DNA from: Escherichia phage ES2-BCU-3
Sequence record: PV733669.1
Reading direction: 5' to 3' (one strand)
Length of the DNA: 53,728 nt
The notes under the pieces are model-generated. The model searched no databases. It had not been told where the DNA came from and worked only from the letters and a program-made list of their open reading frames with translations. The position numbers were made by a program, and so were the translations under genes. This document shows positions 42,078 through 43,517 of this stretch, one piece after another (positions within the stretch are counted from its first letter, which is position 1; every line of letters begins with the position of its first letter).

Positions 42078-42422
42078 TCAAGAATCAGACTTGCTAGTTT
42101 CATCTGGCATCACCTGTATAATAATACGTTCTTTGTCAATCACTTCAATTGAGATACCAACCAGCTCTTTACCTGGTTCAGTGAATGCTTTACATTGTAT
42201 GAACGATGTACCATACAACATAGCCTGGTCGATTGCATGACGAAGCTTGACATTATCCTGGTACATATGACGCACACGAGGTAAGACATTACAAAGAGGT
42301 TCTTTCTCGTCCATACCAATTGAGCGCATAATTGATTTGAGTATGCCCAGATGGTGGTTGTACTTATCTTCCAGCGTATAACGCTGACCAGTCTTATTAT
42401 CCATTACCATGTTAGTCTCCAA
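42078..42422 (-). CDS. Hypothetical protein
   Basis: 114-aa ORF. Confidence 0.45.
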   Translation of the reverse strand: METNMVMDNKTGQRYTLEDKYNHHLGILKSIMRSIGMDEKEPLCNVLPRVRHMYQDNVKLRHAIDQAMLYGTSFIQCKAFTEPGKELVGISIEVIDKERIIIQVMPDETSKSDS

Positions 42423-42455
42423 TAAAGAAGGGGCTTGTGTTAAGCCCCTTGTTAA

Positions 42456-42908
42456 TTACTCGGCGTCGTCCGTTTCAGCCGCAGTGAATGTTACAGTCGG
42501 AATACCTGGTGACACTTTAACGATTGGGTCGACAATCGCAAGCTGTTCAGGAGTCAGGTTACGATATGCTGTAATACTCATATCATACTTGGCTTTGAAC
42601 AGTTTAGCCGCAACAACCTTCGGCAACTTCTTCATGACTTCTGGAACAAGTTTCTGCTCCAGGCTACGGTTGATTTTCTGTTCAACCTTCAGCTTACCAG
42701 GTACACCATGCAAGGAGAAGTCGGTAGTCTGTGTACCTTCTTTACCCTTGCTGATAATCATGTCACGTTCAAGACGAGACTTGATTGTCCGGCGCAGAAG
42801 CTCCTGGTCTTCCTTCGCCTTCGCCATCCACTTGTTCAGGTTGGACAGGTTGTCCAGCAGCTGTTCCGTTGTCAGCTGTTCCATTGCTTCCGGTGTTAGT
42901 TTGGTCAT
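42456..42908 (-). CDS. Hypothetical protein
   Basis: 150-aa ORF with helical charged N-terminus; its 5' end overlaps the 3' end of the next ORF by about 140 nt. Confidence 0.45.
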   Translation of the reverse strand: MTKLTPEAMEQLTTEQLLDNLSNLNKWMAKAKEDQELLRRTIKSRLERDMIISKGKEGTQTTDFSLHGVPGKLKVEQKINRSLEQKLVPEVMKKLPKVVAAKLFKAKYDMSITAYRNLTPEQLAIVDPIVKVSPGIPTVTFTAAETDDAE

Positions 42909-43179
42909 TACTTGTTTCCTCGTCAGGAGTAGATTGAACTGGCAACAGCACAGCCAGATAGTTATTGTATGCTTCCCGGAACAGAGCTATCGCTTTGCTT
43001 CGCTTGAGCTCTATTATACCATTAGTGGTATGCACACGTAAAACATTATTTTTCTGCTTGCCAATCCCCTTAACGAGGAACTCAATCTTGCGAACATCTT
43101 CAAGCATGATGATGTCGATTGTGCCGCCCCATTCGTCACTACCTTCGGGCTTGGCTTGGTGCATGAATGCAAAATTCAA
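42769..43179 (-). CDS. Hypothetical protein (3' end overlaps neighbour)
   Basis: 136-aa ORF whose C-terminal 45 aa are low-complexity and overlap the start of 42456..42908; one boundary is probably wrong. Confidence 0.35.
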   Translation of the reverse strand: MNFAFMHQAKPEGSDEWGGTIDIIMLEDVRKIEFLVKGIGKQKNNVLRVHTTNGIIELKRSKAIALFREAYNNYLAVLLPVQSTPDEETSNDQTNTGSNGTADNGTAAGQPVQPEQVDGEGEGRPGASAPDNQVSS

Positions 43180-43517
43180 AATGGTAACTCCCTGAAGTAA
43201 TACGGTTTAAAGTTAATACGTGCAAGTGCATTCTTCATACTGAGGTCTGTTGCATACAGTTCAGTGAAGCCAAACACAAGTTTGAACTTGTCACCTGCAA
43301 GTATTCCTGACTGGTCGTCATACCACTTCTCAACCAGCTTACGACGTTTACGCCAACGTATATCGACGTAAACACAGATACTACCGTCAGCCATGTCACT
43401 GATAGATTCAACATAACCGATAAGAGGCTTGCTGGTAGGGTCAGCAATAAGTACACGGTCACCTTTAGCAAGCTCATTCAAATTCTCAACGCGCTTGATA
43501 TAGTTCTTAGTTTTCAT
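43176..43517 (-). CDS. Hypothetical protein
   Basis: 113-aa ORF, ATGA-coupled. Confidence 0.45.
   Translation of the reverse strand: MKTKNYIKRVENLNELAKGDRVLIADPTSKPLIGYVESISDMADGSICVYVDIRWRKRRKLVEKWYDDQSGILAGDKFKLVFGFTELYATDLSMKNALARINFKPYYFRELPF

What the first reader, a model, noticed from the sequence alone, without database searches (positions are those of the whole stretch)
42456..43179. Two adjacent minus-strand ORFs overlapping by about 140 nt
The upstream ORF (42769..43179) ends in a low-complexity tail that overlaps the helical N-terminus of the downstream ORF (42456..42908). Either a boundary is wrong, with the downstream gene starting at an internal Met near 42761, or this is a frameshift or overlap arrangement.
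Basis: seen in the sequence. Interest (0 to 1): 0.2.

Follow-up and report, generated by a model that had tools for sequence, protein, structure and literature searches.

The report
Drifting stop codon makes gene overlap
Two real, separately translated phage genes overlap by 140 bases because the upstream gene lost its original stop codon and now reads into its neighbour, adding a floppy, unconserved tail; this is ordinary genome drift, not a frameshift device, though it misleads annotators and at least one experiment.

Summary
On the minus strand, ORF A (42769..43179, 136 aa) and ORF B (42456..42908, 150 aa) overlap by 140 nt, with B in the +1 frame relative to A. The window is a Loughboroughvirus (ZCSE2/S144-like Salmonella phage).

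ORF B is a full-length Pfam DUF7173 protein. Its ATG at 42908 and a GAGGA Shine-Dalgarno 9-10 nt upstream are conserved in every lineage examined, so the internal-Met start is wrong.

ORF A is a real gene. Its core has dN/dS 0.02, and its fHy-Eco03 homologue was detected by LC-MS/MS. Only residues 1-80 fold; residues 82-136 are predicted disordered.

The tail looks like an unselected by-product:
- Relatives end A 4 nt before B's ATG, or 20-26, 98 or 125 nt into B. The long tail occurs in one derived clade.
- Each stop position is set by synonymous codon choice in B.
- The tail's frame is no better conserved than the unused third frame.
- All polymorphisms in the overlap are silent in B and change A.

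No frameshift motif, shared shift window or RNA structure was found. Evidence that the open frame is selected is marginal (P about 0.04).

In passing: a conserved extended -10 promoter-like element lies inside ORF A, upstream of B. Low interest; useful mainly for fixing annotation.

The parts
42769..43179 (-). ORF A, 136 aa, with a TTG start that overlaps the upstream gene's TGA (TTGA). It is a real gene found only in this phage group.
   Evidence: The TTG aligns with the ATG starts of the fHy-Eco03 and SOI901 homologues. Core dN/dS is 0.02 against SE4. The fHy-Eco03 homologue Gp75 was detected by LC-MS/MS at 60% coverage. Only 3 cluster representatives exist in 1.84 billion proteins.
43188..43192 (-). 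Shine-Dalgarno GGGAG, 8 nt upstream of ORF A's TTG.
   Evidence: Read directly from the sequence. Conserved in SE4.
42940..43179 (-). Folded core of ORF A (residues 1-80): a five-stranded beta-sheet plus a C-terminal helix, weakly PH-like.
42772..42936 (-). Disordered linker plus tail of ORF A (residues 82-136). Residues 91-136 are encoded inside ORF B.
   Evidence: pLDDT is below 50. The tail is absent or shorter in most lineages. No amino-acid constraint is detectable.
42769..42908 (-). The 140-nt overlap of A's tail and B's N-terminus.
42769..42771 (-). ORF A's stop codon TGA, formed across B's codons CTT GAA (Leu46-Glu47).
42916..42921 (-). Shine-Dalgarno GAGGAA for ORF B, 9 nt upstream of its ATG. 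It is encoded as Glu-Glu within ORF A.
   Evidence: Conserved as GAGGA/GGAGA in every lineage. Synonymous-codon conservation in A rises here.
42456..42908 (-). ORF B, 150 aa, a full-length DUF7173 / phrog_2480 protein. The true start is the ATG at 42908.
   Evidence: Pfam PF23791 E = 1.6e-42, residues 7-146 matching profile positions 2-143 of 145. phrog_2480. 0 non-synonymous and 17 synonymous variants among close relatives. AlphaFold pLDDT 82.7. The fHy-Eco03 homologue Gp74 was detected by MS.
42759..42761 (-). Rejected.
   Evidence: No Shine-Dalgarno upstream.
43013..43042 (-). Sigma-70 promoter-like element embedded in ORF A: TTTACG-N18-TATAAT, with TG giving an extended -10 (TGGTATAAT). 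It would start a B-only transcript near 43006.
   Evidence: 10 of 12 matches plus TG. Conserved at nucleotide level across lineages even where amino acids differ. Synonymous-codon identity is 0.7-0.83 here against a background of about 0.45. It is one of 5 perfect TGnTATAAT sites in the window. Independently annotated as a promoter in phage AEV23. No experimental transcription start is known.
42418..42450 (-). Intrinsic-terminator-like hairpin plus T-run, 6 nt after B's stop. It closes the A-B transcription unit.
   Evidence: 9-bp stem, 5 GC pairs, CTTTATT tail.

Best explanation
ORF A and ORF B are two genuine, independently initiated genes.

B, a DUF7173 protein, starts at ATG 42908 using its own conserved Shine-Dalgarno. 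It may also be transcribed from a conserved promoter-like element embedded in A.

A starts at TTG 43179, coupled to the upstream gene through a TTGA overlap. It encodes an ~80-residue folded domain. In the ancestor, A's stop lay at or within about 25 nt of B's start. In the common ancestor of Rosemountvirus and Loughboroughvirus that stop was lost. Since then A's frame has stayed open until the next chance stop, which is created or destroyed by synonymous third-position changes in B. Those stops lie at +98, +125 or +140 nt.

Ribosomes translating A therefore run on into B (inferred, not shown). They append a ~46-residue disordered tail whose sequence is simply B's N-terminal helix read in the -1 frame. 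The tail is tolerated rather than selected.

Shown: gene reality, B's start, variable stop positions, lack of constraint on the tail. Inferred: that the tail is actually translated, and that it is functionally neutral.
For: B's boundaries: full-length DUF7173 and phrog_2480 matches. The ATG and GAGGA are conserved in 11 lineages. N-terminal helices are confidently modelled.

A is real: core dN/dS 0.02, MS detection of the fHy-Eco03 homologue, folded core.

The tail is derived and labile. The overlap is -4 nt (L019), 20-26 nt (L016-18, fHy-Eco03, KM, KE25, SOI901), 98 nt (emiel, BP63), 125 nt (birk) and 140 nt (window, S144, ZCSE2, SE4). The long form is confined to one clade on the B tree. emiel's GCT GAC gives a stop while birk's synonymous GCC GAC does not; birk's ATT AAG gives a stop while the window's ATC AAG does not.

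No constraint on the tail. Against SE4 it has 12 non-synonymous and 1 synonymous change in A's frame. All 3 polymorphic sites among close relatives are B-synonymous and A-changing. A-frame identity equals or falls below that of the unused third frame (0.76 vs 0.76; 0.39 vs 0.48). Within Rosemountvirus, B's dS in the overlap equals that in the rest of the gene. The tail is predicted disordered.
Against: The open A frame is somewhat longer than synonymous shuffling predicts (P = 0.039 window, 0.013 SE4; 0.005 with window-wide codon usage). B's dS between window and SE4 is lower in the overlap (0.22) than in the rest of B (0.57), although this is not significant (P = 0.07), it matches A's core (P = 0.45), and the high-identity stretch continues about 50 nt past A's stop. 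Disordered tails can act through composition rather than sequence, which these tests cannot see. There is no direct evidence on whether the tail is translated in this genus.
Confidence: 0.8

Rival explanations
1. The tail is a young but functional overprinted extension. After the stop was lost, selection kept A's frame open in Loughboroughvirus because a disordered, acidic, Gly/Thr/Asn-rich tail contributes to A's function through its composition or length.
For: Shuffle tests give P = 0.039 and 0.013 and 0.005. B's dS is reduced in the overlap for window vs SE4. The full 140-nt overlap is kept in all 8 Loughboroughvirus genomes. The tail grows stepwise across the clade.
Against: The tail frame is no better conserved than the unused frame. 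The stop position is polymorphic within Rosemountvirus at dS of about 0.1. All polymorphisms change A. The dS dip is not significant and is not confined to the overlap. The Loughboroughvirus clade is shallow, so retaining the open frame has little statistical weight. Much of the openness comes from B's own codon bias.
Confidence: 0.12
2. Programmed +1 ribosomal frameshifting in the overlap fuses A's domain to B, and the overlap exists to allow this.
For: B is in the +1 frame of A in every lineage. B's frame is open 78 nt upstream of its ATG in the window.
Against: There is no common shift window. In L016 and L017 the B frame is closed immediately before the ATG, leaving only 20 nt. In fHy-Eco03 the window is 29 nt. 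In L019 A stops before B starts. No conserved slippery or stop-adjacent motif appears in the alignment. No stable RNA structure is present (z = -0.15). B has its own conserved Shine-Dalgarno and ATG. RF1 has B without A. The fHy-Eco03 MS reports separate Gp74 and Gp75.
Confidence: 0.02
3. A boundary is wrong: B really starts at internal Met50 (42761), as annotated in SE4, and there is no true overlap.
For: The SE4, birk, SD286 and IntR records annotate N-terminally shortened B proteins.
Against: The DUF7173 and phrog profiles cover the N-terminus. Residues 1-46 are under purifying selection and include invariant residues L17, L21, N25, W27, M28 and others. They form modelled helices. The SD and ATG at 42908 are conserved, and there is no SD before M50.
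Confidence: 0.02
4. ORF A is not a gene at all, as implied by the ZCSE2, S1, SA173, AEV23 and emiel annotations. The region would be a long leader or promoter region for B.
For: Four of seven close relatives and many Rosemountviruses leave it unannotated. It has no PHROG or Pfam match. A promoter-like element lies inside it.
Against: dN/dS is 0.02. The amino-acid sequence is conserved across lineages that are saturated at synonymous sites. The fold is confident. It has an SD and start-stop coupling. MS detected the fHy-Eco03 homologue at 60% coverage.
Confidence: 0.02

Closest known systems
Out-of-frame overlap of adjacent same-strand genes created by loss or drift of the upstream stop codon (C-terminal extension, or 'overprinting'). 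General knowledge of bacterial and phage genome evolution.
   Same: Same strand, with the upstream gene's 3' end extended into the downstream gene. The extension is disordered and low in complexity, young, lineage-restricted and variable in length. The downstream (older) frame dominates the substitution pattern.
   Different: At 140 nt it is much longer than the usual 1-4 nt phage overlaps. A graded series (-4, 20-26, 98, 125, 140 nt) is visible among related phages. No evidence of dual-frame selection was found, unlike established functional overprinted genes.
Translationally coupled phage gene pairs (ATGA/TTGA or short overlaps with termination-reinitiation)
   Same: The upstream gene and ORF A show the classic TTGA arrangement. 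In short-tail relatives A stops 20-26 nt after B's ATG, close enough for coupling.
   Different: In the window A terminates 140 nt downstream of B's start, too far for backward reinitiation by current understanding. B must rely on its own SD and possibly the embedded promoter.
Programmed frameshift gene pairs in tailed phages (for example the tail assembly chaperone G/GT type, or prfB-type +1 sites)
   Same: Two overlapping frames on one strand, offset by one base.
   Different: No slippery site, stimulatory structure or conserved shift window. The downstream ORF has its own initiation signals and occurs alone in RF1. The genes sit in a replication-module cluster, not the tail module.
Pfam DUF7173 (PF23791) / phrog_2480
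   Same: ORF B is a full-length member.
   Different: The function is unknown. One paper (PMC12946066) proposes receptor binding for a truncated Rosemountvirus homologue. The genomic context (replication/early cluster) and weak structural matches to N-terminal regions of phage RecB-like/PD-(D/E)XK proteins do not obviously fit that.

Membership tests
Pfam DUF7173 (ORF B) | Score above the curated gathering threshold, with near full-length profile coverage | tested here: met
   145.4 bits against a cut-off of 27. Residues 7-146 match profile positions 2-143 of 145. phrog_2480 E = 1.6e-32.
Functional overlapping (dual-coding) gene pair | The alternative frame is open significantly longer than synonymous-codon shuffles of the primary gene | tested here: inconclusive
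   P = 0.039 (window), 0.013 (SE4), 0.12-0.14 (Rosemountvirus) and 0.26 (fHy-Eco03). P = 0.005 with window-wide codon usage. Not corrected for ascertainment.
Functional overlapping (dual-coding) gene pair | Suppressed synonymous rate of the primary frame inside the overlap | tested here: not met
   In Rosemountvirus pairs, dS is 0.10 vs 0.11 and 0.19 vs 0.17. For window-SE4 it is 0.22 vs 0.57, but P = 0.07 against the rest of B and 0.45 against A's core, and the conserved stretch extends beyond the overlap.
Functional overlapping (dual-coding) gene pair | The overlapping frame's protein sequence is conserved above a null frame, and its stop position is conserved | tested here: not met
   A-frame identity is at or below third-frame identity in 6 of 6 pairs. 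There are six different overlap lengths / stop positions across lineages (-4, 20, 23/26, 98, 125 and 140 nt), each toggled by B-synonymous sites.
Programmed ribosomal frameshift site | Conserved slippery or shift-prone motif within a shared overlap window | tested here: not met
   The shift windows do not coincide: 20 nt in L016/17, 29 nt in fHy-Eco03, none in L019. No shared motif is present.
Programmed ribosomal frameshift site | Stimulatory RNA structure, or a downstream ORF without its own initiation signals | tested here: not met
   Fold z-score is -0.15. B has a conserved SD and ATG.
Termination-reinitiation translational coupling (A to B) | The upstream stop lies within a few to a few tens of nt of the downstream start | tested here: not met
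   140 nt in the window. The condition is met only in short-tail relatives (20-26 nt, -4 nt).
Sigma-70 extended -10 promoter (element inside ORF A) | TGnTATAAT with a -35-like hexamer at 16-18 nt, conserved among relatives | tested here: met
   TTTACG-N18-TATAAT with TG upstream. Conserved in all lineages except L019. There is a synonymous-site conservation peak.
Sigma-70 extended -10 promoter (element inside ORF A) | Mapped transcription start site or promoter activity | not testable with these tools
   No transcriptome or 5'-end data were found. The S144 paper only predicts promoters.
PH-like fold (ORF A core) | Significant structural superposition on PH-domain structures | tested here: inconclusive

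The most novel reading that the evidence does not exclude
The A tail is a de novo protein segment caught in the act of being born. A graded natural series (no overlap, then about 8, 32, 41 and 46 tail residues) across sister phage lineages would show a disordered C-terminal extension being created by overprinting of a conserved helix-coding region. The Loughboroughvirus version would already be under weak selection for openness or composition. Alternatively, its translation through B's ribosome-binding site would tune B's expression relative to a B-only transcript from the embedded promoter.
Probability: 0.12. Interest if true: 0.4.

Novelty: new member of a known kind. Interest (0 to 1): 0.15.

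Why it matters
The value is mainly practical. Public records treat this locus inconsistently:
- ORF A is missing from ZCSE2, S1, SA173, AEV23, emiel and many Rosemountviruses.
- ORF B is N-terminally truncated in SE4 (102 aa) and in birk, IntR and SD286 (123 aa), because gene callers penalise long overlaps.

At least one published functional study (PMC12946066) expressed the truncated 123-aa form, which lacks about 26 residues of a conserved helical hairpin. It went into inclusion bodies and had to be refolded. Correct boundaries matter for any further work on DUF7173.

Conceptually the locus is a tidy, small example of how stop-codon drift produces long overlaps and disordered tails without selection. 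It is also a caution that a marginally significant open-frame test is not evidence of function.

Tried and rejected
- Internal-Met start for B: rejected on profile coverage, conservation, structure and the lack of an SD.
- +1 frameshift fusion: rejected.
- Sequencing-error frameshift in A: rejected, because 8 independent genomes share the frame.
- A conserved third-frame stop overlapping B's ATG (TAATG or TGATG) as a sign of a -1 shift plus coupling: the third frame is closed upstream and there is no slippery site, so this was treated as coincidence.
- RNA structure sequestering B's start: none found.
- Function of B: only helical-hairpin matches in the PDB, nothing by profile against PDB sequences, no PADLOC match, and BFVD matches mostly uncharacterised phage proteins.
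- Wider homologue search for A: only 2 proteins by the k-mer search and 3 representatives by the exhaustive search, so deep family statistics are impossible.
- The 210-aa antisense ORF: not unusual under synonymous shuffling (P = 0.31).
- The S144 paper: no proteomic evidence for these ORFs.

Full report
**What is there.** On the minus strand, the ORF listing gives ORF A at 42769..43179 (136 aa, TTG start) and ORF B at 42456..42908 (150 aa, ATG start). The window is a Loughboroughvirus, 98.6% identical here to Salmonella phages ZCSE2 and S144. The same arrangement occurs in seven other genomes of the genus, which rules out a sequencing error.

**How annotators have treated the locus.** They disagree.
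- ZCSE2, S1, SA173 and AEV23 omit ORF A.
- S144 and PK3 call both ORFs with an overlap.
- SE4 calls A in full but truncates B to 102 aa from Met50.
- In Rosemountvirus, emiel leaves A unannotated, while birk and BP63 call both.

**ORF B and its start.** B is a full-length member of Pfam DUF7173 (E = 1.6e-42, residues 7-146 on profile positions 2-143 of 145) and of phrog_2480. Its ATG and a GAGGA-type Shine-Dalgarno 9-10 nt upstream are conserved in all 11 lineages examined. The 46 codons inside the overlap are under purifying selection in B's frame (dN/dS 0.26-0.44). They contain invariant residues and form a confidently modelled helical hairpin (H14-27, H32-48; mean pLDDT 82.7). Among six near-identical relatives B has 17 synonymous and no non-synonymous variants. 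Met50 has no Shine-Dalgarno. The internal-start reading is therefore rejected.

**ORF A is a real gene, but only its first ~80-90 residues behave like one.** The core has dN/dS 0.02 against SE4 and is recognisably conserved in Rosemountvirus, the fHy-Eco03 group, Erwinia phage SOI901 and four metagenomic contigs. The TTG at 43179 aligns with ATG starts in fHy-Eco03 and SOI901, is preceded by GGGAG at 8 nt, and overlaps the upstream gene's stop as TTGA. In fHy-Eco03 the 91-aa homologue Gp75 was detected by LC-MS/MS with 60% coverage, and Gp74 (B) with 31% (PMC8145870). AlphaFold folds residues 1-80 as five strands plus a helix (pLDDT about 80-90) and leaves residues 82-136 disordered (pLDDT 32-47). 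The family is tiny, with three cluster representatives among 1.84 billion proteins, of 136, 122 and 93 aa.

**The tail is derived and labile.** A ends at different points relative to B's ATG in different lineages:

| Lineage | A's stop relative to B's ATG |
|---|---|
| L019 | 4 nt before |
| L016, L017 | 20 nt after |
| SOI901 | 23 nt after |
| fHy-Eco03, KM, KE25, L018 | 26 nt after |
| emiel, BP63 | 98 nt after |
| birk | 125 nt after |
| Loughboroughvirus (window, S144, ZCSE2, SE4) | 140 nt after |

On a B-protein tree rooted with Erwinia phage RF1, which has B but no A-like gene, the long overlaps form a single nested clade. The alignment shows that each stop is toggled by a synonymous third position in B. 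emiel's GCT GAC gives TGA while birk's GCC GAC is open. birk's ATT AAG gives TAA while the window's ATC AAG is open. The window's own stop is formed by CTT GAA.

**Tests for selection on the tail.**
1. Against SE4, the tail has 12 non-synonymous changes and 1 synonymous change in A's frame, compared with 1.5 and 16.5 in the core.
2. All three polymorphic sites in the overlap among close relatives are silent in B and change A.
3. Over the same nucleotides, A's frame is no better conserved than the unused third frame (0.76 vs 0.76, 0.39 vs 0.48, and so on). B's frame is conserved (0.89, 0.67).
4. Within Rosemountvirus, B's dS is the same inside and outside the overlap. The window-SE4 dip (0.22 vs 0.57) is not significant (P = 0.07), equals A's core (P = 0.45), and the high-identity stretch runs about 50 nt beyond A's stop.
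5. The only positive signal is that the frame is open longer than synonymous shuffles give: P = 0.039 for the window, 0.013 for SE4, and 0.005 with window-wide codon usage. It is 0.12-0.14 in Rosemountvirus. Given how the finding was selected, and given B's own codon bias against T-ending codons, this is marginal.

Eleven B-silent single-base changes could truncate the tail. The genus is too shallow for their absence to carry weight.

**Frameshifting.** There is no shared window in which an A-to-B shift could occur. The B frame is closed right up to its ATG in L016, L017, fHy-Eco03 and L018, and A stops before B starts in L019. No conserved slippery motif appears in the alignment. The region folds no better than shuffled sequence (z = -0.15).

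**Most likely mechanism.** These are two independently initiated genes. In this genus, ribosomes translating A simply continue for 140 nt into B and add a disordered Gly/Ala/Thr/Asn/Ser/Gln/Pro-rich tail whose sequence is dictated by B's codons read in the -1 frame. That the tail is translated, and that it is neutral, are inferences. In short-tail relatives A's stop is close enough to B's start for coupling. In the window it is not, so B must rely on its own ribosome-binding site.

**An additional feature bearing on B's independence.** Inside ORF A lies TTTACG-N18-TATAAT preceded by TG, an extended -10 (43042..43013). The block is conserved at nucleotide level across lineages even where the amino acids differ (GII, GIM, DMI). 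It uses the rarer ATA Ile codon twice. It coincides with a peak of synonymous-codon conservation (0.7-0.83 against about 0.45). It is one of only five perfect TGnTATAAT sites in the window. It was independently marked as a promoter in AEV23. It would give a B-only transcript starting near 43006. A terminator-like hairpin follows B's stop (42450..42428). None of this has been verified experimentally.

**Function.** The function of both proteins remains unknown.
- B matches only helical hairpins in the PDB and mostly uncharacterised phage proteins in BFVD. It has weak matches to N-terminal regions of RecB-like/PD-(D/E)XK proteins.
- The genes lie in S144's 'cluster C', the replication/transcription operon.
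- A 2026 paper proposes that the Rosemountvirus SD286 homologue 'gp38' is a receptor-binding protein (PMC12946066). The construct was the 123-aa truncated annotation, recovered from inclusion bodies and refolded, so that conclusion deserves re-testing with the full-length protein.

**Verdict.** This is a real but ordinary overlap: a non-conserved C-terminal read-through extension produced by stop-codon drift. It is not a frameshift device and not a mis-placed start for B. Interest is low. The value lies in correcting annotation and as a small worked example of neutral overprinting.

Noticed in passing
window 43013..43042 (minus strand), inside ORF A: An extended -10 sigma-70 promoter-like element (TTTACG-N18-TATAAT preceded by TG). 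It is conserved at nucleotide level across Loughboroughvirus, Rosemountvirus, the fHy-Eco03 group, SOI901 and metagenomic relatives, and it coincides with a peak of synonymous-site conservation. AEV23 annotates a promoter at the same place. It would give a B-only transcript.
   Followed up: partly
window 42418..42450 (minus strand): A strong intrinsic-terminator-like hairpin (9-bp stem, T-rich tail) 6 nt after ORF B's stop. S144 annotates a 'promoter' over the same bases (S144 locus 2653-2677, which is window 42448-42424).
   Followed up: no
window 42409..43041 (plus strand): A 210-aa antisense ORF spanning all of ORF B and part of ORF A. Similar antisense ORFs (155-156 aa) occur in SE4 and emiel. 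Synonymous shuffling of B gives P = 0.31, so it is a by-product of B having few TTA/CTA/TCA codons.
   Followed up: yes
window 43176..43179: ORF A's TTG start overlaps the TGA stop of the upstream gene (43176..43517) as TTGA, a classic translational-coupling arrangement. S144 labels that upstream gene 'BAH domain-containing protein', but it has no Pfam match here even at E up to 1, so the label looks unreliable.
   Followed up: partly
L003 1697..2065 (emiel); also ZCSE2, S1, SA173 and AEV23 at the position equivalent to window 42769..43179: The ORF A homologue is simply missing from many deposited annotations. The ORF B homologue is N-terminally truncated in SE4 (102 aa), birk, IntR and SD286 (123 aa), and in several protein clusters of 123-131 aa.
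   Followed up: yes
PMC12946066 (phage SD286 gp38, a homologue of ORF B): A published receptor-binding claim for a DUF7173 protein rests on a 123-aa construct lacking about 26 N-terminal residues of the conserved helical hairpin, refolded from inclusion bodies. The gene sits next to the primase in the early/replication cluster, which is an odd place for a receptor-binding protein.
   Followed up: partly
one search hits P0005, P0007, P0008; one search hit H61: Contigs of about 53 kb carrying B homologues are deposited under bacterial names (Enterobacter hormaechei, Salmonella enterica), and one record is named 'Listeria phage'. These are probably complete phage genomes of this group labelled by the sample rather than by the true host.
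   Followed up: no
L016 430..693 and L018 2224..2655: Neighbouring small genes in metagenomic relatives carry weak precomputed hits to PF04957 (ribosome modulation factor). Not examined.
   Followed up: no
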